From: an uncultured virus (IMG/VR IMGVR_UViG_3300044641_002811)
Taxonomy: Duplodnaviria > Heunggongvirae > Uroviricota > Caudoviricetes
IMG/VR virus record: IMGVR_UViG_3300044641_002811
Strand: one strand, 5' to 3'
Length of the DNA: 20,000 nucleotides
Notes under the pieces: model-generated
The model's database searches: none
Told to the model about the DNA's origin: nothing
What the model saw: only the letters and a program-made list of their open reading frames with translations
Part shown: piece by piece, positions 4,173 through 15,920 of the stretch
Numbering within the stretch: position 1 is the first letter of the stretch
Layout: each line of letters starts with the position of its first letter
Translations under genes and position numbers: made by a program

Positions 4173-4513
4173 TCAATAGGGATCGAGTGATAGGCGCAGT
4201 ATTGAATCCCGTTCTTTTCACACCACATTGCGTAGGTGGTCTTTGAACGTTTTTCAATCTTGTTATGAGGAGCCTGAAAGACCATCCGAATGTCAAGATC
4301 CGGATTCGCTTTCTTAACTGCAAGCATCTTGCGGCGATCCTCAGGAGTAAAGTGGCCCTTGGTTTCTAGGTAGACACCATTGGGCAATAGAAAATCTGGG
4401 GTGTAGTTACACTGAAGAATATAAGGAACCTTAGTGGACTCATATTCAAACTTCACGCCCAGGCTCTTCAGCAGATCAGCAACCTGCCTCTCAAGACCAG
4501 AGCGATAGTTCAT
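4160..4513 (-). CDS. Endonuclease I / Holliday junction resolvase (T7 gp3-like)
   Basis: YRSGLE, YTPDFLLPNG, ETKG, PDLDIRMVF and TTYAMWCEK motifs. Confidence 0.95.
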   Translation of the reverse strand: MNYRSGLERQVADLLKSLGVKFEYESTKVPYILQCNYTPDFLLPNGVYLETKGHFTPEDRRKMLAVKKANPDLDIRMVFQAPHNKIEKRSKTTYAMWCEKNGIQYCAYHSIPIEWLT

Positions 4514-5079
4514 CAGAAGTCTTCGTCGCCGTCACTCGTGGTTGCAGTCACATTAGGTTCACCTGTTTTGAATCCTTTGGTCTGACCAAACAGGGCAGCG
4601 ACTTCGGTTTCATCCATGTCACCTGTGTCCACACCAGCACCGTTGCTCAGTGCGACCAGCTGGAGGCCCACCAATTTGACGGAGGTTCCATACGATCCAT
4701 CCGGCATGGTGTAGGGCTTTTGACGGAAGGCCAGCTTTACCTTCGAGCCGCCGTAGATCGGTGTGTTCTCATCGGTGATGGGTGTGCCTTCGGTGTCAAC
4801 CACCGGAGGTTCTTGACCCGGCTTCCACGAGAACTTCAAGACATAGGAATCACTGTCGTGCTCTTCCCAAGGCTCAGGCTTGAGGATGGCCCGCTTGGGA
4901 TTCTTCAGCTTCGATTCCGCCCACTTCAGTAGCTCTGCGCGTTCTTCTTCCAGGCGATCAATCAGCTTGCTGTCAACCACAGCCTTCAGGCCAAACGACC
5001 CAAACTTGGATGGTTTCAGCACCGCTTGATAGCCCTCAAGAACAACAGGCTCTTGTGTGACGTGAATATTCTTAGCCAT
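4513..5079 (-). CDS. ssb: Single-stranded DNA-binding protein (T7 gp2.5-like)
   Basis: PIYGGSKVKLAF and GLQLVAL segments, acidic C-terminus ending in Phe (DGDEDF), syntenic with gp3. Confidence 0.9.
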   Translation of the reverse strand: MAKNIHVTQEPVVLEGYQAVLKPSKFGSFGLKAVVDSKLIDRLEEERAELLKWAESKLKNPKRAILKPEPWEEHDSDSYVLKFSWKPGQEPPVVDTEGTPITDENTPIYGGSKVKLAFRQKPYTMPDGSYGTSVKLVGLQLVALSNGAGVDTGDMDETEVAALFGQTKGFKTGEPNVTATTSDGDEDF

Positions 5080-5100
5080 ATACAATAGTGGATAGGTGGA

Positions 5101-5943
5101 TTAGTTAAAACGCGGGCGCTTGTAGCCCTGATCAAAGCGGGGGAAGAATTCGTCCAGCCCTTTGATGATGAAGTCCATGTTGTACCAACCATCACGGCGG
5201 ACGTTGCCAATCATCATCATGATGGAGGGCACCAAGGCGTTACGCACTTCAGCCGGCAGGTACTGCCATGTCGTGCCCCCTTGCTCCCCCTTGAGGCGGT
5301 TGACTTCTTTGATGACACCAGCTTGAACACGAGAATAGATCCCTTCATTCAGCACACTGGCAAACCAGCGACCAAATCGAGTGGAACAATCCGCTGGTAC
5401 TTCTTTCGCCTTTGGCCGGCCATAGTAAGAGCGGTAGCACTCCAACTGCAGAAGACCCAATGGTCCTTCGTAGGCTTTGGCTGTGTCGGGGAAGGATCGC
5501 AGGATGGAGTTGTTGATCTCCTTCGCAGCCTCCTCGTGCATCAGACCTGCTTCCTTGCGGAGGATCAGATCCAGCGACACACCAATCAGCTTGTCTGTGA
5601 TCTCATCGGCATATTTGCCAGCCTTCGTGTTCTTGCCACGGTAGAGCTTGAGCAGGGACTTGAAGGTGTCTTGGTCCATGGCCATACCTTCTTTGGCTGG
5701 CATGTTTGGCACCTCTACACGAACCGGAGAAATTCCGGCCAAATCGCCGAGATCGCCTGCGCTGCAACGGGTCTTCGAACCGGAGGTTTTTGCCAGCTGA
5801 GCCCTCAGGGAGCGCAGGGACTCACCGCCAGTGTTGCCATACAACGTCTTGGTTGCCCCTGTGATGGAGAAGTGGGGGACACCCTCCACCACCAAGCAGT
5901 CCGTGTTGAAGAATTCCGAGAAGAAAGGGGTGGCCGTCTTCAT
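5101..5943 (-). CDS. Putative P63C-domain (antirepressor-type) protein, 280 aa
   Basis: The C-terminal pattern N..IYSRV.AGVIKEV...WQYL....LDEFFPR resembles the Mx8 p63 C-terminal domain (recognised from memory, not by HMM). ATG lies 1 nt after the RNAP stop. Confidence 0.6.
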   Translation of the reverse strand: MKTATPFFSEFFNTDCLVVEGVPHFSITGATKTLYGNTGGESLRSLRAQLAKTSGSKTRCSAGDLGDLAGISPVRVEVPNMPAKEGMAMDQDTFKSLLKLYRGKNTKAGKYADEITDKLIGVSLDLILRKEAGLMHEEAAKEINNSILRSFPDTAKAYEGPLGLLQLECYRSYYGRPKAKEVPADCSTRFGRWFASVLNEGIYSRVQAGVIKEVNRLKGEQGGTTWQYLPAEVRNALVPSIMMMIGNVRRDGWYNMDFIIKGLDEFFPRFDQGYKRPRFN

Positions 5944-5944
5944 G

Positions 5945-8287
5945 TCAACAAAAGAAATAGGTGGATTCGATCACGGATTCCGGTTCCAGGTCTCCGATGA
6001 TCGGGGGTTCGCTCTCTGCACCGATCTGACGGGCAAAGTCGCGCAGGTAGTCGTGCTCTGCAAACAGGTGCATGTATGTCTCGCGTACCAATGTGGATAG
6101 AACGGACATGTCAGTCGCCCTGCACAGCACGGAGTCGTGGATCAATGCAATCGGTGCATCGAACCGCAAAGTGGACAGGTGGAGCAGCGCTGCATCCAAT
6201 GAATGGATCAGATTTGGGCTCGTTGCATTCTTGTGGTGGTTGAGGTCCACCTTGTCGGTGTCACCTGTCGCCACAGACAACTTGCACTCACCCAGCAGTT
6301 GCAGCTCAATGCGGACCACCTCTTTCTTCATCAACTTTTGGTTGACGACAAAGCCAGAGGGTGTAGTCCACTGCAGCTTTTCTGCCCCGCGCTTGATGGC
6401 ATTGGCCACTTCTTCCTCAATCCAACGCATGACACGCATGGGACCAGGGAAGATCTCCTCCATCGCTGCTCGAACGGCAGCAACGGTTTCCGTTAGGTCT
6501 TCTTTGGAGACCTCAACGCCTTTCTCGGCCAACGCTTCACGGATGTAGGAGCGATTGGAATAGGGTTTGGCATTGTAAGGAATCGTTAAACATGTGCGCT
6601 TGGTGACTTTCCGATCCATGTGGTCTCGAATGGACGCAGGACAGTTTGGTTTAGCGGCTTCGGCCACCACCTTGTACGCATCCTGCGGTTGATCACTCGG
6701 CACCACATTGACCATCTTTGCTGTTGATTTACAGCGACACAGCCCAGCCAGGATCTGGAGTCCTGAGCAGGTGGCGTCTGTGGCCACCATCAGCCCTGTG
6801 AATTGCCGATCCGCTGCAATGACGCAGTGGTAGTACTCCTCACAGGCGGCCAAGAACTGCCATGGTTCATCGGCTACTTCCCACTCAGGTAAACACCCAA
6901 TCGGATCTGTAGCGACACGCGTGATGAGTGTGAGGTTATCCGCCGTCCACTCCAAGCGCTCCGCCATGGTGGCTTTGTCCAAGCCGTAGGTGGTCGCAAC
7001 CTGGAACGACAACCATTGCTCTGCTTCAGGAGTCATGAACGACTCATCGGCAAAGCGCAGAAGAGACTTTCCAAAATCAGTATCCTGCGGGGTCAAGAAT
7101 GCGGGAATTGGATAAGCTCTCCCGCGATAATCCATCGACCACGGACAATGGAAACGCTCAACCTTCTTGAACCGACGCACCGCTTCCATCGTCATGCGTG
7201 TCCGGCATGATCGCTTGAACTCTTGGGCATTCAGGTTCATCGTCTCTGCTGCACGTCTTCGATAATCCTTCCGGCTATCGTAGTTCTCAGCAATGTCCAC
7301 GGGCTTTGGTGGTAGCTCGTGATGCACGATGGGTCTGAACTTCCCAACAGGTCGTTGCAGCCGCTCTAACTCTTCCGCTACCTCCACAATGAAGGGATTG
7401 AGGCGAAAGGCAACCTTCTGAATTTTGTTCAGAAAAGCCAGGGGCACTTCCCCCTGTATAGATGTCGGATCTCCACGGCGTACCAAATCATGACCGCGCA
7501 TCACCTCATTGAGTAGGTAGCCACCAGCGCGTTCGTTGGTCCAATCGTTGGGTTCAATCAACATCGGCCACGCCAACGGCGCGAACAGTTCTGAATCGCT
7601 GATCACCTTGTCTTTGATCGCCAAGAACTCTGGGGTCGGTGCGATGAACTGCATCTTTCTGCGTCCCTCTTGACGCACGATGCGATCAAACCAACCGCTG
7701 CTTTGGATGATGCACTCCAGCAGCCAGCCCCCCAGCTTGACCCGATTTGAGGATCCCCAGCTCTTCCAGGGTTCCACCTCGCAGCGGTTCATCAGGGTGC
7801 GGATCACCACCAGTTTTTGATGGGTGCCGATGGAACGGTGCCAGTAGTTCTGTTTCAGTGTGTTAAGGAGCCCTGGGGCCTTGCGTTCGTAGTGGCGCAT
7901 CTGGCATTCCGCCTCCACCGCAGCACCCACCGCTTCACAGACAGTGGTGACCTGATCGCTGCCTTTCTTGGTGCTGAACACCTTGTCGAAGGTCACCTTC
8001 AGGGCAATGGCCCCGGCGGCTTTGGCGTCTAGGTCCGTCAAGTACTGATGGATTTCCTTGAAGGCGACCCCGGTTTTGCCGCGTTTGATCGCGTACTCCA
8101 CCGTGGACTCGATTTGCGTCACCAGCTTTGGCAGCAGCGCTTCGATGGAGGCGGCGCCATAGACCGTGGCACTCGCGTAGCTCTGGTCTTCGAGCTTGCG
8201 CGTGTTGTCACGCAGCTTTTGGAGCCCGAGTCTGATCTGATCGCGCTCCAGTTGGATTTGCTCATCAATTTGAGCGGGTGTGGGCAT
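5945..8287 (-). CDS. Single-subunit DNA-dependent RNA polymerase (T7 gp1 / Syn5-like)
   Basis: DYRGRAY, motif A DATCSGLQ, motif B RKVTKR...PY, PNLIHSLDA, motif C IHDS, C-terminal YFFC. The 780-aa size fits the compact cyanopodovirus RNAPs. Confidence 0.97.
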   Translation of the reverse strand: MPTPAQIDEQIQLERDQIRLGLQKLRDNTRKLEDQSYASATVYGAASIEALLPKLVTQIESTVEYAIKRGKTGVAFKEIHQYLTDLDAKAAGAIALKVTFDKVFSTKKGSDQVTTVCEAVGAAVEAECQMRHYERKAPGLLNTLKQNYWHRSIGTHQKLVVIRTLMNRCEVEPWKSWGSSNRVKLGGWLLECIIQSSGWFDRIVRQEGRRKMQFIAPTPEFLAIKDKVISDSELFAPLAWPMLIEPNDWTNERAGGYLLNEVMRGHDLVRRGDPTSIQGEVPLAFLNKIQKVAFRLNPFIVEVAEELERLQRPVGKFRPIVHHELPPKPVDIAENYDSRKDYRRRAAETMNLNAQEFKRSCRTRMTMEAVRRFKKVERFHCPWSMDYRGRAYPIPAFLTPQDTDFGKSLLRFADESFMTPEAEQWLSFQVATTYGLDKATMAERLEWTADNLTLITRVATDPIGCLPEWEVADEPWQFLAACEEYYHCVIAADRQFTGLMVATDATCSGLQILAGLCRCKSTAKMVNVVPSDQPQDAYKVVAEAAKPNCPASIRDHMDRKVTKRTCLTIPYNAKPYSNRSYIREALAEKGVEVSKEDLTETVAAVRAAMEEIFPGPMRVMRWIEEEVANAIKRGAEKLQWTTPSGFVVNQKLMKKEVVRIELQLLGECKLSVATGDTDKVDLNHHKNATSPNLIHSLDAALLHLSTLRFDAPIALIHDSVLCRATDMSVLSTLVRETYMHLFAEHDYLRDFARQIGAESEPPIIGDLEPESVIESTYFFC

Positions 8288-8370
8288 GGGCGTCTCAATA
8301 AGAATTGTTTCGTCGGTGAGACTCGATCTTCATCTATCCACATACGGCTGTGTACAACCGTGAGACCCAA

Positions 8371-8393
8371 TAAAAAAGGGCCGGTTGGCCCTG
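8371..8393 (-). terminator. Intrinsic terminator between attP and the RNAP gene
   Basis: Minus strand AGGGCC-AACC-GGCCCT followed by TTTTTA. Confidence 0.75.
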
Positions 8394-8427
8394 ATGAGTG
8401 TGAAATGTGGACAGACCTAGGCGTCAC

Positions 8428-8467
8428 ATTTTGAGTCGAGTCCGTCTACCAATTCCGGCACGCTCCC
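8428..8467 (-). other. Putative attP core: 5' half of tRNA-Leu(CAA), not a full tRNA
   Basis: GGGAGCG TG CCGGAATTGGTAGACGG A CTCGA CTCAAAA T gives the acceptor 5' strand, a Leu-type D-arm, the 5' anticodon stem and the CAA loop. The next bases (GTGAC) do not complete the stem and no T-arm follows. Lies 85 bp downstream of the integrase. Confidence 0.8.
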
Positions 8468-8514
8468 ACAGGGATTCCAGCCGATCTCATTGCTGAGATC
8501 CGCCCTGCGAAATC

Positions 8515-8523
8515 ACCATAGCA
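8515..8523 (-). promoter_or_regulatory. Possible extended -10 element upstream of the tRNA half
   Basis: TGCTATGGT (TGn + TATGGT) about 48 nt upstream of the tRNA 5' end; no convincing -35. Confidence 0.35.
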
Positions 8524-8552
8524 GGCTGTGGCGGGATTGGCGTAGACAACCA

Positions 8553-9470
8553 TTAGATGTTGTTGGCTGTGCTCAAAACGGCGTCCTGTGTGTTATGGAC
8601 GTACCGCTCGGTGGTCTCCACTCGCTTGTGACCCATAGCGGCCTTGACGTGCATCAAGGGTGCACCGGCTGCGATCTGCCACGTCCCGAAGGTGTGACGC
8701 AGTGTGTGGAAGACATACGATTCATCAATGTAGGGATCCAATCGGATCGCCTTGTCCCTCACTTTGTTGAAGTGACGGTTGATGATCTGACGGCTGTACC
8801 ACACCTCACCAAAGACCAGATCCATTGCGTCCTTGCCATGGAGTCGCCGTTGGAGCATCTCCACGATCTTGTCGTTGATGCCCACCTGGCGGTAGTTCTT
8901 GGCCTTGGTCACGGAATCAGGTGTACCACCGATGTGAATGACAGGCTGTTGCGGCCTGAAGTCCACGTCCCTGACCTTGAGTTTGCGTAACTCTGCTTGC
9001 CGTGCTCCGGTATACACCGCTGCACGAATCAGGTCAGCCAACTCGAAGTCACCCCGTTCACAGGCAAGGTTGGTGAGCAACGTCACCTGCTCTTTGGTGA
9101 ACCAGTTGGTGCGTCCTTCCCCTTCCTTGTAGCGTTGAATGACAGGAATGGCGTTGATGTACCCGTCCCTGGCTGCGATCTTGAGGACCATGCTAATCGT
9201 TGAGATGAAACGATTGGCAGAACCATTTGACCAACTGTAGCTGTCTACAGCATCTTGAACCACCGCTTTTATGAACGGTGTGTTGATGATTGTGAGGGCA
9301 GGATCACCAGCGATTTCTTCAAACTGTTTGGCGTGACGAATCACGTTCATACCGTTTGCTGTCTTGGGATCCCATTGCTGGGTCAAGGCATGTTCAAACG
9401 CTTGGCTAAACGTCTTGATCGACGTTTTCTTGGGGATGCGGTCAAGGATGCGTTGGGTTCGCTTATCCAT
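8553..9470 (-). CDS. int: Tyrosine recombinase / phage integrase
   Basis: Catalytic residues all present: R (TGARQAEL), K (TKAK), HxxR (FHTLRH), H (MGH), Y (ERYVH). Confidence 0.95.
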   Translation of the reverse strand: MDKRTQRILDRIPKKTSIKTFSQAFEHALTQQWDPKTANGMNVIRHAKQFEEIAGDPALTIINTPFIKAVVQDAVDSYSWSNGSANRFISTISMVLKIAARDGYINAIPVIQRYKEGEGRTNWFTKEQVTLLTNLACERGDFELADLIRAAVYTGARQAELRKLKVRDVDFRPQQPVIHIGGTPDSVTKAKNYRQVGINDKIVEMLQRRLHGKDAMDLVFGEVWYSRQIINRHFNKVRDKAIRLDPYIDESYVFHTLRHTFGTWQIAAGAPLMHVKAAMGHKRVETTERYVHNTQDAVLSTANNI

Positions 9471-9816
9471 AGAGGGTTGATTCGATTTGTCGGATTAAAT
9501 CGTGGCCTCGTTTGGTTAACCGTAGAGTCAACCTTTTTCTGTCGATAGGGTCTACCTCCTTGGTGATAAGATCCATCCCTGGCTTACCTAGATAATGCTC
9601 ACTTGTCAGTCGAGCAATGTTTCGACTGCTGCTCGCAGTAGTGAGTCCTAAGTCCTCCTCTAATGCTTGCTTGTGGCAATTATCGTGGCTTGCAATGTAG
9701 AAAAAACAAGCCAAAGCTTGGGCTGGTACTGATCGGTCAAGTACCCTCAACAATTCCATGACCCGAAGCATCCGCTCCATGTCTGGATTAGTGCGGGTCC
9801 TCCGTAATGGGTCCAT
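9463..9816 (-). CDS. MarR-like winged-helix transcriptional regulator
   Basis: HTH segment (KQALEEDLGLTTASSSRNIARL) and wing (DPIDRKRLTLRLTKRG) typical of the MarR family; overlaps the int start. Confidence 0.85.
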   Translation of the reverse strand: MDPLRRTRTNPDMERMLRVMELLRVLDRSVPAQALACFFYIASHDNCHKQALEEDLGLTTASSSRNIARLTSEHYLGKPGMDLITKEVDPIDRKRLTLRLTKRGHDLIRQIESTLYG

Positions 9817-9955
9817 GATCCTTGTATTGGATACAGTCCCATTCTAGACGCAGCCTACCGAAGTGGATAATCCATGCAGTGGTGGTACGCCATATGTGCT
9901 GGAAGCTTGCGTCATCCAGCCCCACATATAGGCGACCGAAACTGATTAGCGTCAC
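9788..9955 (-). CDS. Small hypothetical protein (55 aa)
   Basis: GTG start overlapping the upstream TGA, with GGAGG 7 nt upstream. MTLISFGRLYVGLDDASFQHIWRTTTAWIIHFGRLRLEWDCIQYKDHGPITEDPH*; internal FGRL repeat. Confidence 0.55.
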   Translation of the reverse strand: MTLISFGRLYVGLDDASFQHIWRTTTAWIIHFGRLRLEWDCIQYKDHGPITEDPH

Positions 9956-10104
9956 TGATGGGCCTCCGTCCAGGCTGTAGATAGTACAAAGGTATCATCC
10001 ACAAGCTGCTCATGGGCGAGTTTGAACAGCTCATCTCGATGCGGATGCTGCATAATTTGATCTTTGAGTTGAGCGAGGCGGCGCTCAAAGGTGGTTTCAC
10101 TCAT
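9952..10104 (-). CDS. Small early hypothetical protein (50 aa)
   Basis: MSETTFERRLAQLKDQIMQHPHRDELFKLAHEQLVDD...; start trimmed to ATG 10104, which overlaps the end of the upstream gene. Confidence 0.65.
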   Translation of the reverse strand: MSETTFERRLAQLKDQIMQHPHRDELFKLAHEQLVDDTFVLSTAWTEAHQ

Positions 10105-10411
10105 CGGTGACGGTGTGTGGATAGAGGTAGTGGATAGATTCGTCATCAGCCACAACAAACTCAACGTCTGGTGTGTTGATTAACTCGTTGACCTTGGCCT
10201 GAGCAGCATGGTGCTTTTGGTACACATACTCCTTGACCTTCTTGGTCTTGAGGTTTGTTGCACGGATAATGCAACATACAGAACTCGGTAACTCCCATCC
10301 CCCAACCTTCCAAGACATCACTTCTTCAAAGGTGTGAGGAATGAAGTCGCTGTCGTCTGCGTCCTTGTACTCTTGCCAGTTATTTGGATAGTAGGGCTTC
10401 TTACCACTCAT
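10097..10411 (-). CDS. Early hypothetical protein (104 aa) of a type seen in cyanopodoviruses
   Basis: MSGKKPYYPNNWQEYKDA...WELPSSVCCIIR; start trimmed to ATG 10411. Confidence 0.75.
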   Translation of the reverse strand: MSGKKPYYPNNWQEYKDADDSDFIPHTFEEVMSWKVGGWELPSSVCCIIRATNLKTKKVKEYVYQKHHAAQAKVNELINTPDVEFVVADDESIHYLYPHTVTDE

Positions 10412-10559
10412 CAGACTTAAATACTTGGATAGTTTGTGTAGATAACTGAGCACCGGACAATTCATAACAAGCCAAAAGGGCACGTTCTTGATTGGCGGCC
10501 ATGACGTGGTAGACCTGGCCACTGGCTGCTACACATTTGAATTGTTGGAGACTACCCAT
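10401..10559 (-). CDS. Small early hypothetical protein (52 aa)
   Basis: MGSLQQFKCVAASGQVYHVMAANQERALLACYELS...DEW; overlaps the next start. Confidence 0.6.
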   Translation of the reverse strand: MGSLQQFKCVAASGQVYHVMAANQERALLACYELSGAQLSTQTIQVFKSDEW

Positions 10560-10588
10560 ATAATCTGATGGGAGAAAAATAGACAAAC

Positions 10589-10750
10589 CTACTTCTCCGT
10601 ATCAAATGTGAACAGGGAGTCCAGTTCAAGCCAGATAGCGCTCTCAATGTCCTGTTGAAGTAACATGTTCTCTACGTCATGACGACGTAAACCTGCTGTT
10701 ACTCCACGTTCGATACACTCAGACACAATGGCGTAGATGTTGGGTTGCAT
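10589..10750 (-). CDS. Small early hypothetical protein (53 aa)
   Basis: MQPNIYAIVSECIERGV...FTFDTEK, with AAGGA upstream. The longer ORF-track version runs across a terminator. Confidence 0.65.
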   Translation of the reverse strand: MQPNIYAIVSECIERGVTAGLRRHDVENMLLQQDIESAIWLELDSLFTFDTEK

Positions 10751-10797
10751 GAACTGCGTCCTTGCTTTGATGATTGTGAACGTTGGATCTTGGGCAC

Positions 10798-10823
10798 AAA
10801 AAAACACGGGTGTTATCCCGTGT
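10798..10823 (-). terminator. Intrinsic terminator in the early region
   Basis: Minus strand ACACGGG-ATAACA-CCCGTGT followed by TTTTTT. Confidence 0.8.
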
Positions 10824-10832
10824 CTATTGATA

Positions 10833-11018
10833 TCACTGACGATACATGCAATAGGCATCATCAATCAGCGATAGCTTGGCTTCATCAACGCAGCCAATGT
10901 ATTGCAGATGCCTAGACATAGCAGCTGTAGCTGATAGACAGCCAACAGTCGCTAATGTGTAGACACCACAAGCAGCAGCAAAGATACCAAGCTTCTTGAA
11001 CACTTGATGTGCGTCCAT
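10833..11018 (-). CDS. Small early protein with a predicted transmembrane/signal segment (61 aa)
   Basis: MDAHQVFKKLGIFAAACGVYTLATVGCLSATAAM...: basic N-region followed by a hydrophobic stretch. Confidence 0.55.
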   Translation of the reverse strand: MDAHQVFKKLGIFAAACGVYTLATVGCLSATAAMSRHLQYIGCVDEAKLSLIDDAYCMYRQ

Positions 11019-11091
11019 GATTGTTAGCGGTGGAGAATGTACAGAGAGATTGCTAATGCAATCAGTGCAGGGAAGGGAAGGAGAATGGCCA

Positions 11092-11286
11092 TTAGTTTTG
11101 ATGTGAATGCAAAACTTCTTGGACAATCAGATCTTGTTCCATGCGATCCAACTGCACCCACTGCTGCCATGTTGTCAGCTCTTCACTGACACACAGGTTT
11201 GCAACTTTTCTGGCTAGACTATCGTCGATGTTGTATTGAGATCCGATGTAGTACATCAGACCATCGAACGATTCAACGGAAGACAT
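11092..11286 (-). CDS. Early hypothetical protein (64 aa)
   Basis: ORF track; AAGGA 7 nt upstream of the ATG. Confidence 0.65.
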   Translation of the reverse strand: MSSVESFDGLMYYIGSQYNIDDSLARKVANLCVSEELTTWQQWVQLDRMEQDLIVQEVLHSHQN

Positions 11287-11378
11287 GCTGTGTCCTTGGT
11301 GAAGTGAACGAGGGTGAGTCCCTCAGAAAGCCCATCCCACCACATACGGATGCGGACAGAATGGGCAATAGGAGAGAG

Positions 11379-11708
11379 TCAAAGGAATGTGAACACGTAT
11401 CCGTTCTCATTGGCCATGCAGCCAACAAGCTTGAAAGAACCATTGATCTCCGGCACTTGCTTAAGCAGATATTGCCAAGCAGCGTTGAAGTGATTCTCTT
11501 GTGTGTTCAGTGAGTGGTCATACCCAAAGGATTGTGCACGCTGTGTGCGTCCTGGGAATTTGCACTTGATGCGGCCTTCGTTGTACCCAGTCTCAATGGA
11601 CCAAGCCCAACCAGGAGCCATCTTGATGATCTCTTGAATATCAATACCATTCATTGGCTGAGTGGTCTTGATCTGTGGTGCAGCAGTGTTGCTGAACTCG
11701 ATGGTCAT
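11379..11708 (-). CDS. Early hypothetical protein (109 aa)
   Basis: MTIEFSNTAAPQ...GYDHSLNTQENHFNAA...GYVFTFL; start trimmed to ATG 11708. Confidence 0.7.
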   Translation of the reverse strand: MTIEFSNTAAPQIKTTQPMNGIDIQEIIKMAPGWAWSIETGYNEGRIKCKFPGRTQRAQSFGYDHSLNTQENHFNAAWQYLLKQVPEINGSFKLVGCMANENGYVFTFL

Positions 11709-11791
11709 TGTGTGTACCAGAGCGGACAGAGTAAGTAGCACTGTGAAGGCTACAGAAAGGGAGACACATGGTGCGTCCCTGAGTGTAGACA

Positions 11792-11980
11792 TCAAGCGGC
11801 CTCTTCTTCGCTTGCTTCAATCTCTTCTACCCAACGAATTGATAGATCTTCAAGTTGATCTTCATCTATGTATTCTCCAAGGTAGATCTGGAGATCAGAG
11901 ACAAGACCTTCTAGATCATCGTTGTCTAGATAGTATTTGAAAGCAGCGGTCAGATGCACGTCTGTGTACGTGGTCTGCAT
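11792..11980 (-). CDS. First early gene: very acidic 62-aa protein (possible DNA mimic)
   Basis: MQTTYTD...EEIEASEEEAA; 18 D/E against 2 K/R. Confidence 0.7.
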   Translation of the reverse strand: MQTTYTDVHLTAAFKYYLDNDDLEGLVSDLQIYLGEYIDEDQLEDLSIRWVEEIEASEEEAA

Positions 11981-12202
11981 GGTGTTGCGTCCGTGATCAG
12001 GTGGAGCAGTGCGAACACTGCAGAAAGCCTTCACACCGCATACGGACGCGGATAGAAGGCAGAGTGCAATGATCAAACAAAGCGTGTTGCTCCGCTTGCT
12101 ACTGCTTGTGCTCCTCGCGGTCAGAGACCCATGCCGCTAGTCGTCACCACTGGTTGACCCAGTAACGGAGCTACTATTAAGTTGTCGATGTTCGATGGGC
12201 TG

Positions 12203-12231
12203 ACTGTATACCAGAGCGGATACAGCGTCAA
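12203..12231 (-). promoter_or_regulatory. Host sigma70-type early promoter
   Basis: TTGACG-17 nt-TACAGT on the minus strand, upstream of the first early gene. The spacer holds a TRTCCRC-N4-GTA motif. Confidence 0.7.
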
Positions 12232-12464
12232 GGTTGGTGTGCCACTTGTTCTGGTGGCTGCAGATAGGTGATGGATCTGCCCAGCATTCGCGCTGGTTCG
12301 CATCGCCTGGGTGCAGTATAGCTACCGATGTGGATAGGACGTGCTGGAACCGTAATATACTGTCACAATGTGGATGGCAACGGCTGAGATCCGTTGGTAT
12401 GACTGGTGTTACGAGTTCGTATCAAGGGAAGGCAGAACAGATGTGTTCACATGACATACGTCTG

Positions 12465-12487
12465 TTATTGCGAACCATTCTCAATAA
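12465..12487. promoter_or_regulatory. Fur-box-like palindrome
   Basis: TTATTGCGAA-CCA-TTCTCAATAA: 10-bp arms with one mismatch. Confidence 0.45.
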
Positions 12488-12489
12488 GC

Positions 12490-12660
12490 GATGCCTGCGG
12501 CCTATGCTGACGCCTGTTTGGTAGCGTAGCGATACACAACAGCACTAGATTTCCTATCTAGTGGCGCCAATACCCCAGGGAAACCGACCCCACACGGGGG
12601 AATCTGCGTCCCTGTATAGCGGTAATAGGCTTTTCAAATTTCTGCCAAAATTTCATCAAG
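12490..12660. other. Probable genome terminus / collapsed terminal repeat
   Basis: Non-coding stretch where end-of-genome genes (terL, thyX) meet the early genes. Contains the palindromes CACTAGAT-TTCCT-ATCTAGTG (12543-12563) and CCCC-ACAC-GGGGG. Boundaries are inferred from gene order only. Confidence 0.55.
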
Positions 12661-12661
12661 G

Positions 12662-12667
12662 TATAAT
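12662..12667 (+). promoter_or_regulatory. -10 element for the RHH gene
   Basis: Perfect TATAAT about 62 nt before the only plus-strand gene; -35 weak (TTTCTG at 17 nt). Confidence 0.5.
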
Positions 12668-12729
12668 GAGGTGGGCCAGCGTAGTTGGAGCTACCTGACC
12701 CGTGACCAACTCAACCATGGATTGAGCTG

Positions 12730-12933
12730 ATGAACTCATTCTCACGACAACCAAGCAATCAGCAAGGTTTGTCTCCTTTTACAACACCATTAACACGCAA
12801 ACCAAGCCGTGTAACGGTCACCATTCCATGGTCATTACGACAAACATTGGAACAACGAAGTGACAAGGAAGGCAGAAGCCTCAGTAACCTCATCGCTTAC
12901 CTTTTAGAACTGTCCTCTGAGAAGCCTCTGTAA
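12730..12933 (+). CDS. Ribbon-helix-helix (CopG/Arc/MetJ-like) DNA-binding protein
   Basis: Beta ribbon RVTVTIP, helix WSLRQTLEQRS, and EGRSLSNLIAYLLE form a classic RHH pattern. Sits in an otherwise empty gap and converges on the next gene. Confidence 0.8.
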   Translation: MNSFSRQPSNQQGLSPFTTPLTRKPSRVTVTIPWSLRQTLEQRSDKEGRSLSNLIAYLLELSSEKPL

Positions 12934-12938
12934 GCTCC

Positions 12939-13247
12939 TTATTTCTCATCATACGTCTCAACATACCACGGAGCCGTTAGACGCATCTCAGGGAGGTTTG
13001 TAGACGTGTCTGACGGCTTTTCTGTGTAGATTGGAGTGACATAATCAGGTGCAGGTGGTTGAAGCGTTTCCCATTCCTTAATCGCTTCATCCAACTCAAC
13101 CTTCACGCGGTTGTTGATGAGCTTCTCCTCCAACCAAACCAGAAGACCAAGCAGTAGATGATCTACCCATGGGATTTTTGTCTTCCATGCTTTGTACAGA
13201 GCTTTGAACTCATTTAGTCTGAGTCCTTTGACCACATTGCTTTGCAT
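12939..13247 (-). CDS. Hypothetical protein (about 102 aa)
   Basis: ORF track; overlaps the thyX 3' end; start uncertain. Confidence 0.65.
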   Translation of the reverse strand: MQSNVVKGLRLNEFKALYKAWKTKIPWVDHLLLGLLVWLEEKLINNRVKVELDEAIKEWETLQPPAPDYVTPIYTEKPSDTSTNLPEMRLTAPWYVETYDEK

Positions 13248-13861
13248 ACATTCGGTACAAACTGATACAGCAAATCTTGAATCTGACCAGCAATCACAGC
13301 ATGTTCCTTCTGAGTACCATGACCAGTCCTCAGATCACAGTAATGCAACCACGACCTAATCGAACCATTCATGTACAACTTAGTCGGAGCTGCCATTGGC
13401 AACACTTCTCGTGCACACTCCTTAGCTACCCCGGCTGCTACCAGTTCTTTGTAGAGACCATAACAGTCAGAGTAAAGACTACCAATCCTGAACTGGAAGT
13501 GTTTCTTCAACACATCATCCAGATCATCAATGGAGTTCTGACGGTTCTTTTCATCTTGTCTCCGTAGCTCTGGGATACCGGCATGTTTCTCTACCTTGGC
13601 ATACCGTTGAGAGAACTCCTGAAAGGAGAACGACCTATGCCGAAGGATCTGTGCTGCAATACTCCGTGTAGTCTCAATAGACACACACATGTTCACCATT
13701 TCAAATGGAGACCAGTGTTGATGATCAATGAGATACTTAATCAACCTAGCACTTGTCTGAGTGTTGGATTGATTGGAAGGATTAGAGACTCTTGCCATGT
13801 AAGCAATGAGATCTTCTGCATCAGGAGTGATGTGTACAAGTGATGCTTGGTGGATGGTCAT
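13214..13861 (-). CDS. thyX: FAD-dependent thymidylate synthase ThyX
   Basis: ARVS, HWSPFE, ThyX motif RHRSFSFQEFSQRY, ECAREVLP, LR....TQKEH. Confidence 0.96.
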   Translation of the reverse strand: MTIHQASLVHITPDAEDLIAYMARVSNPSNQSNTQTSARLIKYLIDHQHWSPFEMVNMCVSIETTRSIAAQILRHRSFSFQEFSQRYAKVEKHAGIPELRRQDEKNRQNSIDDLDDVLKKHFQFRIGSLYSDCYGLYKELVAAGVAKECAREVLPMAAPTKLYMNGSIRSWLHYCDLRTGHGTQKEHAVIAGQIQDLLYQFVPNVCKAMWSKDSD

Positions 13862-14056
13862 TGGTGGGTAGAATGGTGGTTCTAAGTTGTTGTTATATAC
13901 ACTTGGTGCGGGATGATCTGTTGGTCACTCATTGACCATCTGTATCATCCATCACCAGTCTTTTAGAAGGCAGTGAGGAGGTGGTTAGAAGATTGGTTGG
14001 ATCTGTACTATTGGTACAATCGGGATGTGCTTCCATCGCACATCAGTACTAACAGT

Positions 14057-14096
14057 AAAAGGGGAGGACTAACATCAGTTGATGTTTGTCTTCCCC
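14057..14096 (-). terminator. Long hairpin with T-tract downstream of terL
   Basis: Minus strand GGGGAAGACAAACATC-AACT-GATGTTAGTCCTCCCC-TTTT. Confidence 0.5.
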
Positions 14097-14180
14097 CTTC
14101 GGGGGTCCGGTCCACCCTTCCATTCCCCCTTATTGATGTCGGATCTGCCAAATCCATTGCAGGAGAACGGATTTGAAGGA

Positions 14181-15920
14181 TTAGACCCAAGTTGGTGTTT
14201 GTCTTCCTTTAGACCCGCCCCTGGCCTGTTTTCGTTGGTCTAACGAGAAGCCCATCACGAGGTGATCTGTAGCACTTTGAGGGTCATCAATAAATGCTTC
14301 CAGGAGGTCTTGCCAGTCTTCCATCCGACGTTGTTTGACGGTTTCATAGGCCGAGATGGACATGGCATCAGTGAAGTATTTGACGCCTTGTGCCAGACTG
14401 TCCAATCTGTCGTCATGTTTGACGGCACCCTTTTCACGACACATGCGACTCATCTGGTAGAAGAGCATGTACAGGAGTCGTTCCTCAGGTGCTGCGTCTT
14501 TATTGGAGCTGTAGTCCCATTCCACTACCGACTTGTCAATGATGAGCCGATGCTGGTTCATCACGGGTTCTAGGGCATCAATGATGCGGTCTTCCTTACG
14601 GACATTGGCACGAACTTCTTCTACGTCAATGGCCTGCTTGGTCTGTTGGAGATGCTTCTTGAACAGCTCAGCCACGATGCCATCACCGAAGTTGGTCTCA
14701 ATAAGGAGCTTAGTGACGTTGTACTTCTTACAACCTCTAAGGATATCAAGAAGGGTGTTGTCGCTGTAACCATCACGGTAAGCACGCACTTCATGGACGT
14801 ACAGGAAGCCGTTCTTCTGTGAGATGTATGTCGCTGCTGTCTCGTCAGAACCACGACCAGAGGGGTCTATCGAGCAGATGGTCTCGGTGTATGGACTCCA
14901 TTCCCCTTGGAGTTGCATCGGGGAGTAGAAGTAATCACCCGGTAGGCCAACCGTAGGCAGATCTTTGAGAACATTACGAGGGTCACTGCACCACACAGCA
15001 GCATCCGGCGCTTGAGTCGGATTAACGGAGGTAATGATGAGGTCTGAGAACTTAAGTGGGAACTTTTCTGCATCACTCAACGTAGTATCCAGCATGAACT
15101 GCAACATGAAGTTGCTACGACCCATGGCTGCTTCTCGTTCCAACAGGTCATCGGATTGGAAACGGTCAGGGTCTGTTGGAGACCACTCCTCAGCACCCAT
15201 CTCGATGTCTTCTACGATCTGTGGTGCTAGCAGATTCTCGTATTGACTGAGCTTGTCCTTACGTGGGTAGCGAGCAGGCCAAACAAATGGTCGGTAGTTA
15301 CGTTCGGCTAGCTTTCGGTAGATGGTGAAGGTAGTTTGGGGTGTCCCTAGGTACATAATGCGACTATCCTTCTTCGGTGTGAGGATGGACTCCGCTTCTG
15401 TACAGAGCTGCAAGAGCTTCTCCCGCATCATCTCCGTCATCGAGTTACCAGGCACTTCAATGTCATCGAGAATCATCAGGTCTGCACGAGAACCCGTTAG
15501 CTGACCTGTGATTCCAACTGACTTGACTGAGGGTGCTTGGTGAGGGGAGCAGTTGACATCAAAGCTAATGCGAGACCACCGAGCATCATCCGACTTCGGT
15601 CTTAGATGGCTTAGCCAAGGGGTTTCAATAATTAGCTTCTGAAGAAAGATGGACATGTTATCTGCACGCTCTTTTGAAGCGGAGATGATCATGATCTTCT
15701 TTTCTGGGTTGTTGAAGAGTGTCCACAACACAAAGGCACCAGTGATCCAGCTCTTACCAACTCCTCGAAAGGCTTGGATCTGTAGTCGTTTTGGTCCTAG
15801 TTGGAGGTAATCTGCAATGGCATACTGCGCTCTTGTCGGAGAAGGCAGATCTAGTTGTTGCCACAGTGCTTGAAGAAAGAGCTTAAAATCGCCCCGTAAA
15901 GCCTCTAAAATATCGTTCAC
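14181..15920 (-). CDS. terL: Terminase large subunit (T7 gp19-like DNA maturase B)
   Basis: Walker A QAFRGVGKS, GSRAD, Walker B MILDDIE, LGTPQ, nuclease IDPSGRGSDE, and HDDRLD. GTG start. Confidence 0.97.
   Translation of the reverse strand: MNDILEALRGDFKLFLQALWQQLDLPSPTRAQYAIADYLQLGPKRLQIQAFRGVGKSWITGAFVLWTLFNNPEKKIMIISASKERADNMSIFLQKLIIETPWLSHLRPKSDDARWSRISFDVNCSPHQAPSVKSVGITGQLTGSRADLMILDDIEVPGNSMTEMMREKLLQLCTEAESILTPKKDSRIMYLGTPQTTFTIYRKLAERNYRPFVWPARYPRKDKLSQYENLLAPQIVEDIEMGAEEWSPTDPDRFQSDDLLEREAAMGRSNFMLQFMLDTTLSDAEKFPLKFSDLIITSVNPTQAPDAAVWCSDPRNVLKDLPTVGLPGDYFYSPMQLQGEWSPYTETICSIDPSGRGSDETAATYISQKNGFLYVHEVRAYRDGYSDNTLLDILRGCKKYNVTKLLIETNFGDGIVAELFKKHLQQTKQAIDVEEVRANVRKEDRIIDALEPVMNQHRLIIDKSVVEWDYSSNKDAAPEERLLYMLFYQMSRMCREKGAVKHDDRLDSLAQGVKYFTDAMSISAYETVKQRRMEDWQDLLEAFIDDPQSATDHLVMGFSLDQRKQARGGSKGRQTPTWV

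What the first reader, a model, noticed from the sequence alone, without database searches (positions are those of the whole stretch)
5081..12336. Strand-specific motif TRTCCRC-N4-GTA upstream of early/replication genes: operator regulon or phage RNAP promoter
Seen, on the minus strand: TATCCACtattGTA (5094-5081, 1 nt before the ssb ATG), TATCCACattgGTA (6099-6086, inside the RNAP 3' end upstream of the P63C-like gene), TATCCACttcgGTA (9869-9856, before marR-int, 9 nt above a TAGAAT), TGTCCGCatccGTA (11358), TGTCCGCtctgGTA (11728), TATCCGCgtccGTA (12054), TATCCGCtctgGTA (12222, in the spacer of the TTGACG/TACAGT promoter), TATCCACatcgGTA (12336, 2 nt above a TATACT), plus TGTACACagccGTA (8356, before RNAP). 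I found none by eye at 12.4-20 kb. Chance expectation is about 0.08 per strand per 20 kb at equal base frequencies, though the motif was defined post hoc. Inference A: an operator for the MarR-like or RHH protein that shuts off early genes, int, RNAP and replication, i.e. an immunity regulon in a T7-like phage. Inference B: the phage RNAP promoter, since it shares the layout of the Syn5 promoter ATTGGGCACCCGTAA (xxT-SS-RC-N4-GTA) with CC in place of GG.
Basis: partly seen in the sequence, partly recalled or inferred. Interest (0 to 1): 0.85.

Follow-up and report, generated by a model that had tools for sequence, protein, structure and literature searches.

The report
Operator sites of cyanophage MarR-like regulator
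The repeated one-strand motif is real, and it is most likely the DNA site bound by the phage's own MarR-like regulator at its early promoters, not the promoter of the phage RNA polymerase.

Summary
TRTCCRC-N4-GTA occurs 8 times, all on the minus (coding) strand at the stated places; 200 shuffles gave a mean of 0.06. The 8356 variant is also there.

The window is a T7-like cyanopodovirus of the P-SSP7/S-CBP1 group. Gene order is regulator, integrase, attP-like core, terminator, RNA polymerase.

- In 19 whole genomes the motif family follows the regulator+integrase module. Eight of 10 carriers have 6-9 early-region sites; 0 of 9 non-carriers have more than 2.
- Carriers and non-carriers interleave on the RNAP tree.
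- Predicted RNAP specificity-loop residues do not follow the motif.
- Relatives hold palindromic versions on both strands.
- At the regulator's own promoter the site keeps a fixed 9-nt distance to a TAGAAT-like -10 box in 16 of 21 lineages.
- The regulator has a MarR fold and is a distant homologue of the LUZ100 regulator.

Binding and its direction (repression) are inferred, not shown. This scan reached the same reading earlier on another genome (e1-4373447).

The parts
12323..12336 (-). Site 1 (TATCCACATCGGTA) in the long non-coding left-end leader. TATACT (12320-12315) lies 2 nt downstream.
   Evidence: homologous site in G002
12203..12231 (-). Sigma70-like promoter TTGACG-17-TACAGT. Site 2 (12209-12222) fills its spacer.
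   Evidence: -35, site and -10 position kept in G002
12041..12054 (-). Site 3 (TATCCGCGTCCGTA), about 60 nt upstream of the first early ORF (ATG 11980).
11715..11728 (-). Site 4 (TGTCCGCTCTGGTA). It follows a terminator-like hairpin (11779-11761) and lies 6 nt upstream of ATG 11708.
11345..11358 (-). Site 5 (TGTCCGCATCCGTA) upstream of the ORF starting at 11286. Its downstream leader resembles that of site 3.
9841..9869 (-). Regulator promoter: site 6 (9856-9869), then 9 nt, then TAGAAT (9846-9841). TRTCCA therefore sits at the -35 position with a 17-nt spacer.
   Evidence: same geometry in 16 of 21 distinct regulator lineages by regex and in three more by eye
9463..9816 (-). Gene of the 117-aa MarR-fold regulator (PHROG 9665). 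Predicted recognition helix at residues 60-70.
8553..9470 (-). Tyrosine integrase gene, overlapping the end of the regulator gene.
8444..8459 (-). attP-like conserved core downstream of int. A 13-mer of it (one mismatch allowed) is found in up to 9 of the 9 other regulator-carrying genomes and in 1 of 9 non-carriers (S-RIP2).
8407..8413 (-). Lone left arm TGTCCAC just upstream of the terminator.
8377..8392 (-). Terminator-like hairpin with T run, between int/attP and the RNAP gene.
8335..8356 (.). RNAP-leader site. TGTACACAGCCGTA (8356-8343, minus) overlaps an opposite-strand TATCCAC (8335-8341, plus); together they form an imperfect 22-nt inverted repeat, 48 nt upstream of the RNAP ATG.
5945..8287 (-). 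T7-type single-subunit RNA polymerase gene.
6086..6099 (-). Site 7 inside the 3' end of the RNAP gene (codons L-S-T-L-V). It is kept by codon choice in 6 of 10 regulator-carrying genomes, and also in 2 non-carriers that are sister to this clade.
5081..5094 (-). Site 8 (TATCCACTATTGTA), one base before the ssb ATG. It is built partly from a duplicated copy of the RNAP 3' end.
10117..10136 (-). Two further left arms (CTATCCAC, 13 nt apart) without GTA, near the junction of two small early ORFs. Possible extra site.

Best explanation
The motif is the operator of the phage's own 117-aa MarR-fold regulator, whose gene sits in an operon with the integrase.

In this phage the operator is an asymmetric pseudo-palindrome. 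It has a strong left arm, (C)TRTCC, then AC-N4, then a weak right arm, GTA(Y). This fits a general form T-x-C AC N4 G-x'-A that is a true palindrome in related phages.

Nine sites lie where host-RNA-polymerase transcription of the early region starts or passes:
- three in the left-end leader, one of them filling the spacer of a TTGACG-17-TACAGT promoter;
- two in front of small early genes;
- one at the -35 position of the regulator-integrase promoter;
- one, together with inverted copies of the left arm, between the attP/terminator and the RNA polymerase gene;
- one inside the 3' end of that gene;
- one in front of ssb.

Inferred mechanism: a regulator dimer occupies these sites, blocks the host polymerase at the early promoters, represses its own operon, and limits production of the phage RNA polymerase. 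That would hold back the lytic programme, either as a timed early shut-off or as a silencing state tied to integration.

Shown here: the sites, their placement, their co-occurrence with the regulator+integrase module, and the regulator's fold. Inferred: binding, a dimeric state, and repression rather than activation.
For: 1. Co-occurrence in whole genomes. In 19 whole genomes, regulator and integrase are present together in 10 and absent together in 9. Early-region matches to four variant patterns, either strand:
- Carriers: 9, 8, 6, 9, 6, 6, 6, 8, and also 1 (G007, which has its own variant) and 2 (G008, a truncated contig).
- Non-carriers: 0, 2, 2, 0, 0, 0, 1, 0, 0.
Background in the remaining ~37 kb is alike in both groups.

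2. Co-occurrence in partial loci. In 32 loci with at least 4 kb upstream of RNAP, the 13 carriers have a median of 3 sites (range 1-8). The 19 non-carriers have a median of 0 and a maximum of 1.

3. Carriers and non-carriers interleave on an RNAP neighbour-joining tree.

4. Palindromic relatives.
- S-TIP37: CCTGTGC-N6-GCACAGG on both strands, including upstream of its regulator and RNAP genes.
- G007: TTGCAC-N4-GTGCAA.
- G002: TATCC-N6-GGATA in 3 of 9 sites, with 2 of the 9 in reverse orientation.
- G008: TATCCAC-TT-GTGGAGA.
- G010: TAC-N6-GTA.

5. Regulator promoter. The site lies 9 nt upstream of TAGAAT/TAGAGT/TAGACT in 16 of 21 distinct lineages. L079, L067 and L090 show the same geometry with a variant left arm.

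6. In S-CBP1, G004 and L044 the site fills the spacer of TTGACA-N17-TATTGT/TATGGT. In the window it fills TTGACG-17-TACAGT, and this is kept in G002.

7. Regulator fold.
- A profile of 17 homologues hits 31 PDB sequences, nearly all MarR family; best is 2eth, E 1.8e-4.
- The AF2 model has pLDDT 88.2.
- All of the roughly 35 Foldseek rows shown are MarR-family regulators such as MarR, MexR, MepR, OhrR and SlyA; best E 3.5e-5, TM 0.54-0.69.
- tblastn finds the Pseudomonas phage LUZ100 regulator: 36.7% identity over residues 33-92, E 2e-5.

8. An unbiased motif search returns this motif as the top result in G001 (IC 24.8; top IC of two shuffled controls 22.4 and 22.3). It finds nothing comparable in the 9 non-carriers.
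Against: - In this genome all 8 exact sites and the variant point the same way, and the right arm is only G-T-A. Dyad symmetry is weak here: over 90 unique sites in relatives, position 15 is a pyrimidine in 62% and position 16 is A in 36%. A homodimeric MarR protein is expected to prefer palindromes.
- The link to the regulator cannot be separated from a link to the integrase, because the two genes always travel together.
- Recognition-helix changes only loosely follow the core variants, and L070 is an exception.
- No sigma70-like -10 box at a fixed distance is seen at most sites. TAnnnT at +9 occurs in 11 of 103 unique sites, so promoter overlap is documented for only some sites.
- In the window 4500-14200, sigma70-like matches are not enriched: 4 found against 7.9 expected.
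- Pfam's MarR models are not reached at their cut-off: 15.8 bits against 27.
- Two non-carriers (G006, DSL-LC07) keep the RNAP-internal match.
- No binding, dimer or transcript data exist.
Confidence: 0.72

Rival explanations
1. The motif is the promoter of the phage's single-subunit RNA polymerase. It would be a Syn5-like compact promoter with transcription starting just after GTA, so that the polymerase re-transcribes early genes, its own gene and the replication genes.
For: - Strict co-orientation with the genes: 8 of 8 sites plus the variant, and 51 forward against 1 reverse exact matches in 80 related loci.
- The N4 spacing is specific: TCCRC-N4-GTA gives 73 forward against 14 reverse, while N3 gives 7/17 and N5 gives 15/9.
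- It is compact and asymmetric, with GTA at the 3' end as in the Syn5 promoter, whose +1 follows GTAA (passages of PMC3950665).
- Two sites follow terminator-like hairpins.
- In LUZ100 a phage-specific promoter sits in the same place, between a terminator and the RNAP gene (passages of PMC10134795).
Against: - It is absent from 9 of 9 regulator-less relatives whose RNAPs (67-75% identical) interleave with those of carriers. De novo search finds no replacement motif there.
- Predicted base-contacting loop residues (T7 746/748/756/758 equivalents) are R-E-K-S in this lineage and also in regulator-less G005, which lacks the motif. They differ among phages that share the motif: S-E-R-S, T-E-K-T, N-E-R-K. 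The mapping from T7 is approximate.
- Relatives hold palindromic and reverse-oriented copies.
- GTA is not kept in G002, where GCA, GGA and ACA occur.
- Five of 8 exact sites lie upstream of the RNAP gene and none lies in the late region of G001.
- There is no conserved initiating sequence after GTA.
- The Syn5 promoter matches only 5 of the 10 specified positions, and its two copies lie at non-equivalent places.
Confidence: 0.1
2. The sites are bound by a host transcription factor (for example a CRP/NtcA-type protein) that only integrase-carrying phages exploit.
For: The RNAP-leader site, and the G010-type sites, read GTA-N8-TAT, close to the NtcA box GTA-N8-TAC (consensus recalled from memory; sequences). 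L070 has an exact GTA-N8-TAC in the same place.
Against: - The majority form in this phage reads RTC-N8-TAN in that register and lacks both key triplets.
- The core changes by phage lineage (TCC, TAC, TGC). P-SSP7 (Prochlorococcus host) and S-CBP1 (estuarine Synechococcus host) share the TCC core despite different hosts.
- A host-factor site would not be expected to vanish whenever the phage's regulator gene is absent.
Confidence: 0.05
3. The sites are arm-type binding sites of the integrase (or of an unrecognised recombination directionality factor) used in integration and excision.
For: The motif co-occurs with int as strictly as with the regulator. Three copies (8413, 8356, 8335) lie within about 110 nt of the attP-like core at 8444-8459.
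Against: - Seven of the 8 exact sites lie 1.4-3.9 kb from the attP-like core, in promoters and gene leaders.
- The fixed geometry with a -10 box at the regulator promoter and placement in sigma70 spacers are promoter-related, not recombination-related.
- As recalled family knowledge, arm sites normally cluster within a few hundred bases of the core.
Confidence: 0.04

Closest known systems
MarR-based control module proposed for integrase-carrying ('temperate') T7-like phages, e.g. Pseudomonas phage LUZ100 (PMC10134795, passages read; it cites Boeckman et al. 2022, which is not held and was not read)
   Same: Same gene order: MarR-like regulator, integrase, terminator, RNA polymerase. The regulator and integrase share an operon behind a host-type promoter. 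Regulator sites are proposed next to the RNAP gene. The two regulators are distant homologues.
   Different: Here the sites form a regulon of about nine copies. They also cover the left-end early promoters, small early genes, the inside of the RNAP gene and ssb. The sequence is defined and traced through about 20 cyanophage lineages. In LUZ100 the element before the RNAP gene is a mapped phage-specific promoter, and no such promoter is shown here.
Classical MarR-family repressors with operators at their own promoter (MarR, MexR, MepR, OhrR, SlyA; structural matches)
   Same: Winged-helix fold with terminal helices. There is a site overlapping the -35/-10 region of the regulator's own promoter, and palindromic operators occur in several relatives.
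   Different: The protein is only 117 aa and falls below Pfam's MarR cut-offs. In this phage the operator is strongly asymmetric and always co-oriented with transcription. No ligand or signal is known.
Syn5 RNA polymerase promoter ATTGGGCACCCGTAA (PMC3950665, passages read)
   Same: Short, asymmetric, ends in GTA, and co-oriented with the genes.
   Different: Only 5 of the 10 specified positions agree. Syn5 has two copies, at other genomic places. The Syn5 RNAP is 37% identical. The present motif follows the regulator gene, not the polymerase.
P-SSP7 gene 0.7 (Sullivan et al. 2005, PMC1079782, passages read)
   Same: It is the P-SSP7 homologue of this regulator. P-SSP7 carries the same site 9 nt above a TAGAGT at that gene's promoter, a copy inside the 3' end of its RNAP gene, and two more copies in its early region.
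   Different: It was annotated by analogy to T7 gene 0.7 as 'shutdown of host transcription'. The fold found here is a DNA-binding MarR type. S-TIP37 workers reported finding no homologues of known repressors of lytic infection in T7-like cyanophages (PMC8776855, passages).

Membership tests
MarR-family regulator with its operators (LUZ100-type module of integrase-carrying T7-like phages) | Regulator has the MarR winged-helix fold | tested here: met
   Profile against PDB: 31 hits, nearly all MarR family, best E 1.8e-4. AF2 pLDDT 88.2. All Foldseek rows shown are MarR-family regulators, best E 3.5e-5.
MarR-family regulator with its operators (LUZ100-type module of integrase-carrying T7-like phages) | Reaches Pfam's curated MarR cut-off | tested here: not met
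   MarR_2 scores 15.8 bits against a cut-off of 27. Five of 17 homologues match at E<=1, best 0.0017. There was no hit at E<=0.01.
MarR-family regulator with its operators (LUZ100-type module of integrase-carrying T7-like phages) | Sequence homology to the LUZ100 regulator | tested here: met
   tblastn: 36.7% identity over residues 33-92, E 2e-5. This is weak and partial.
MarR-family regulator with its operators (LUZ100-type module of integrase-carrying T7-like phages) | Gene order regulator-integrase-terminator-RNAP | tested here: met
   the same order holds in 10 of 10 regulator-carrying genomes.
MarR-family regulator with its operators (LUZ100-type module of integrase-carrying T7-like phages) | Site overlapping the regulator's own promoter | tested here: met
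   Site, then 9 nt, then a TAGAAT-type box in 16 of 21 lineages. The promoter itself is predicted, not mapped.
MarR-family regulator with its operators (LUZ100-type module of integrase-carrying T7-like phages) | Palindromic or pseudo-palindromic operator | tested here: inconclusive
   Clear in S-TIP37, G007, G008, G010 and part of G002. Weak in this phage.
MarR-family regulator with its operators (LUZ100-type module of integrase-carrying T7-like phages) | Regulator binds the sites as a dimer | not testable with these tools
There are no binding data.
T7-type single-subunit RNAP promoter (Syn5-like) | Co-oriented with transcription | tested here: met
   8 of 8 exact sites on the coding strand.
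T7-type single-subunit RNAP promoter (Syn5-like) | Motif follows the polymerase (phylogeny, specificity loop) | tested here: not met
   it is absent in 9 of 9 regulator-less relatives with interleaved RNAPs, and the loop residues do not track it.
T7-type single-subunit RNAP promoter (Syn5-like) | Copies ahead of middle and late genes | tested here: not met
   No copy in the late region of G001. Five of 8 lie upstream of the RNAP gene. Syn5 itself has only 2 copies, so this counts for little.
T7-type single-subunit RNAP promoter (Syn5-like) | Conserved initiating bases at a fixed distance | tested here: inconclusive
   At the second base after GTA, 7 of the 8 window sites have a purine. Over 90 sites in relatives the share is only 66%, and no G run is seen.
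T7-type single-subunit RNAP promoter (Syn5-like) | Transcripts start there, dependent on the phage RNAP | not testable with these tools
   Only one RNA run holds 6% of the words, and it is kept as contigs.
Sigma70-type host promoter element | Fixed distance to a -10 box at all copies | tested here: not met
   TAnnnT at +9 in 11 of 103 unique sites, about the regulator-promoter orthologues. At -2 it occurs in 21 of 103, near chance given the fixed TA.
Integrase arm-type sites | Clustered around attP | tested here: not met
   The attP-like core lies at 8444-8459. Seven of the 8 exact sites are 1.4-3.9 kb away.

The most novel reading that the evidence does not exclude
Integrase-carrying marine T7-like cyanophages, including the model phages P-SSP7 and S-TIP37, possess a genuine repressor-operator switch. 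A compact MarR-type sensor would silence the host-driven early promoters and the phage RNA polymerase gene from about nine operators, releasing them in response to a host signal. A nearly invariant Cys47 next to His48 hints at redox or light stress as that signal. This would be the regulatory system reported as not found in these phages. It would tie the phages' transient integration to host physiology.
Probability: 0.25. Interest if true: 0.8.

Novelty: new member of a known kind. Interest (0 to 1): 0.5.

Why it matters
T7-like cyanophages are among the most abundant viruses of Prochlorococcus and Synechococcus. Many carry an integrase, yet lysogeny has not been found. One study of S-TIP37 attributes this to missing regulatory genes (PMC8776855).

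A defined DNA site now links the neighbouring MarR-like gene (P-SSP7 'gp0.7') to the early promoters, to its own operon and to the RNA polymerase gene. The same site family is present in both model phages. That gives a concrete circuit that can be tested with existing genetic tools.

The result also warns against reading this motif as the still-unknown RNA polymerase promoter of this phage group.

My searches of the held library found no paper describing these sites. Boeckman et al. 2022 is not held and may bear on the claim.

Tried and rejected
- **Own genome:** not held. I used the 97%-identical G001 instead.
- **Papers:** the Syn5 JBC paper and Boeckman 2022 are not held. One search was swamped by 'marrow'.
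- **Positional homology with Syn5:** rejected. The Syn5 copies lie at 4929 and 44797.
- **Motif as part of a sigma70 promoter:** rejected. There is no fixed -10 distance except at the regulator promoter.
- **NtcA box reading:** fits only the RNAP-leader type.
- **De novo motif finder**: its noise floor (IC about 22-24 with 6 sites) is close to the signal, so it cannot exclude promoters present in 2-3 copies. It missed the motif in G004 and S-CBP1, where pattern counts find it.
- **Iterative PWM refinement:** drifted in G004 and S-CBP1.
- **Covariation of the recognition helix with the core base:** suggestive only.
- **Conserved Syn5-like promoter in non-coding DNA of 19 genomes:** the search gave the attP-like core and structured elements, but no promoter candidate.
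- **RNA evidence:** one metatranscriptome run, 6% of the words, kept as contigs. I did not lay it, because contigs cannot show starts.
- **Integrated copies in genomes:** 7 loci, all phage-sized or short contigs in MAGs or single-cell assemblies. I did not inspect them for flanking host genes or junctions.
- **Rfam on 8250-13000:** nothing credible.
- **Complex prediction** for a regulator dimer: not available.
- **Maximum-likelihood trees:** two attempts got no answer from the script machine. The tree used is neighbour-joining without support values.

Full report
**What the window is.** All long ORFs lie on the minus strand. Pfam and PHROG hits give a T7-like layout. In transcription order:
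- late genes, including the large terminase (15920-14181) and thyX (13861-13214);
- about 950 nt without a convincing ORF (12938-11981);
- small early ORFs;
- a 117-aa 'transcriptional regulator' (PHROG 9665; 9816-9463);
- a tyrosine integrase (9470-8553);
- the single-subunit RNA polymerase (8287-5945);
- a 280-aa ORF of no known family;
- ssb, endonuclease I, primase-helicase and DNA polymerase.

The RNAP is 78.5% identical to that of Synechococcus phage S-CBP1, 58.7% to P-SSP7 and 37.3% to Syn5. The window's own assembly is not held. The viral contig G001 (44,707 bp, 99% complete) is 90.5-97.9% identical over five blocks.

**The observation.** The exact pattern gives 8 matches, all on the minus strand at the stated coordinates. 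Shuffles gave a mean of 0.06. One mismatch adds the 8356 variant and nothing above 12336. G001 as a whole has 0 forward and 8 reverse matches, all in the same region. The labels 'P63C-like' and 'RHH' found no support.

**The motif in relatives.**
- In 80 loci around related RNAP genes, the exact pattern occurs 51 times on the gene strand and once on the other.
- The shorter TCCRC-N4-GTA gives 73 against 14. Spacings N3 (7/17) and N5 (15/9) are not enriched.
- Many of these loci are related, so these are not independent counts. Sixteen of the 73 are one conserved place inside the RNAP gene.
- Relatives show a longer left flank, A-C-C before TRTCCAC.

**Test of the promoter reading.**
- The Syn5 promoter is followed directly by +1 (passages of PMC3950665). 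Its two copies lie 810 nt into the RNAP gene and 6 nt after the terminase gene, so neither corresponds to a site here.
- I assembled 19 whole genomes of this clade for scanning. Regulator and integrase are present together in 10 and absent together in 9.
- Early-region matches to four variant patterns are 9, 8, 6, 9, 6, 6, 6, 8, 1, 2 in carriers and 0, 2, 2, 0, 0, 0, 1, 0, 0 in non-carriers. Background in the rest of the genome is similar in both groups.
- The two low carriers are G007, which has its own variant, and G008, whose contig is cut in the early region.
- A second set of 32 loci gives medians of 3 and 0.
- On a neighbour-joining tree of the RNAPs (358 ungapped columns, no support values), carriers and non-carriers interleave.
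- Aligned to T7 RNAP, the equivalents of the base-contacting residues 746/748/756/758 are R-E-K-S in G001 and G002, and also in regulator-less G005, which lacks the motif.
- Phages that share the motif differ at these positions: S-E-R-S in G004, T-E-K-T in S-CBP1, N-E-R-K in P-SSP7. This mapping crosses low identity and a two-residue gap, so it is approximate.
- An unbiased motif search finds this motif first in G001 and nothing comparable in the nine non-carriers. It could not have seen a promoter with only two or three copies.

**Evidence for an operator.** In other lineages the same element is a palindrome and occurs in both orientations:
- S-TIP37: CCTGTGC-N6-GCACAGG.
- G007: TTGCAC-N4-GTGCAA.
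- G008: TATCCAC-TT-GTGGAGA.
- G010: TAC-N6-GTA.
- G002: TATCC-N6-GGATA in 3 of 9 sites.

All fit T-x-C AC N4 G-x'-A. Aligned on the homologous promoter of G002, the window's GTATA stands where G002 has GGATA. The site here is therefore a pseudo-palindrome with a strong left arm and a weak right arm.

Upstream of the regulator gene, the site lies exactly 9 nt above a TAGAAT-type box in 16 of 21 distinct lineages. Three more show the same geometry with a variant left arm. This puts TRTCCA at the -35 position with a 17-nt spacer.

In S-CBP1, G004 and L044 the site fills the spacer of TTGACA-N17-TATTGT or TATGGT. In the window it fills TTGACG-17-TACAGT.

Before the RNAP gene, after the attP-like core (8444-8459) and a terminator (8392-8377), the variant site overlaps an inverted TATCCAC, and a further left arm lies at 8413.

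The copy inside the RNAP gene keeps TCC-ACA-TTG-GTA in P-SSP7 and in this phage despite 59% protein identity. That argues for selection on the DNA. However, two regulator-less sisters of this clade also keep a match.

**The regulator.**
- A profile of 17 homologues hits almost only MarR-family structures.
- The model is confident (pLDDT 88.2), with four helices, a wing and a C-terminal helix.
- All Foldseek rows shown are MarR-family regulators, such as MarR, MexR, MepR, OhrR and SlyA.
- Pfam's own cut-off is not reached.
- Homologues occur in S-CBP1, S-CBP3, S-TIP37, P-SSP2, P-SSP3 and P-SSP7 (as 'gp0.7'), in the Syn5-group phages SS120-1, S-CBP2 and S-TIP28, and in Pseudomonas phage LUZ100.

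**Comparison with what is known.**
- The LUZ100 paper describes the same gene order. Citing Boeckman et al. 2022, it describes a model in which MarR sites flank the promoter before the RNAP gene (passages).
- Huang et al. 2015 label the cyanophage gene as MarR in a figure legend only.
- Sullivan et al. 2005 called the P-SSP7 gene 0.7, 'shutdown of host transcription'.
- Shitrit et al. report finding no homologues of known repressors of lytic infection in T7-like cyanophages.
- Searches found no description of these sites. Boeckman 2022 and the supplements of these papers were not seen.
I saw it after forming my reading, and I tested the claim independently.

**What stays open.**
- Binding, dimer state and direction of control are inferred.
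- The strict single orientation here is not explained by a symmetric dimer. It may reflect duplication of promoter-site modules, since sites 3 and 5 share their leaders, or a real need for orientation.
- The link to the regulator cannot be told apart from a link to the integrase by co-occurrence alone. Placement in promoters favours the regulator.
- The promoter of the phage RNA polymerase in this clade remains unidentified.

Noticed in passing
window 8444-8459 (minus), between int and the terminator: A conserved core (GCCGGAATTGGTAGAC and flanks). A 13-mer of it, one mismatch allowed, is found in up to 9 of the 9 other regulator+integrase genomes and in one non-carrier (S-RIP2). It looks like part of a tRNA gene, i.e. 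the attP core. P-SSP7 is reported to share 42 bp with a host tRNA gene downstream of int (PMC1079782).
   Followed up: partly
window about 12310-12270 (minus), just downstream of site 12336: A stretch of about 35 nt is nearly identical between G001 and the much more diverged G002, and it contains a hairpin (CCAGC-GCGAAT-GCTGG). It may be a structured leader or a small RNA made from the first early promoter.
   Followed up: no
window 12040-11981 and 11344-11287 (minus): The leaders after sites 12054 and 11358 resemble each other: GGCTTTCTG, then a hairpin, then an AAGGAC-type ribosome site. This suggests duplicated promoter-leader modules.
   Followed up: no
early regions of G001, G007, S-CBP3, S-CBP4 and G005: AAGGACGCA-like words recur about 10 nt before start codons of early genes: 8 of 9 forward copies of GGACGCA in G001 lie in its early region. 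Probably a shared ribosome-binding context.
   Followed up: no
window 5095-5110 and 5944-5965 (minus): The last bases of the RNAP gene (AATCCACCTAT...) are repeated just before ssb, flanking the 280-aa ORF that only this sub-clade carries. In most relatives ssb follows RNAP directly. The ORF looks like an insertion and has no Pfam or PHROG family.
   Followed up: partly
window 10117-10136 (minus): Two CTATCCAC left arms lie 13 nt apart without a GTA arm, near the junction of two small early ORFs.
   Followed up: no
G001, about 23,005-23,035 of the rotated genome (outside the window): A hairpin with a conserved loop (CACCTCAGAGTCGGA) and compensatory stem changes in 8 genomes, regulator-carrying or not. 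It lies in non-coding DNA that I did not annotate further. Possibly a structured RNA.
   Followed up: no
loci L158-L164 (genome contigs): Relatives of this phage sit as phage-sized or short contigs in MAG bins labelled Pirellulaceae, Ignavibacteria and Chloroflexota, and in Prochlorococcus single-cell assemblies. These are probably mis-binned or infecting phage DNA rather than prophages. L158 has the same length and coordinates as viral contig G002.
   Followed up: no
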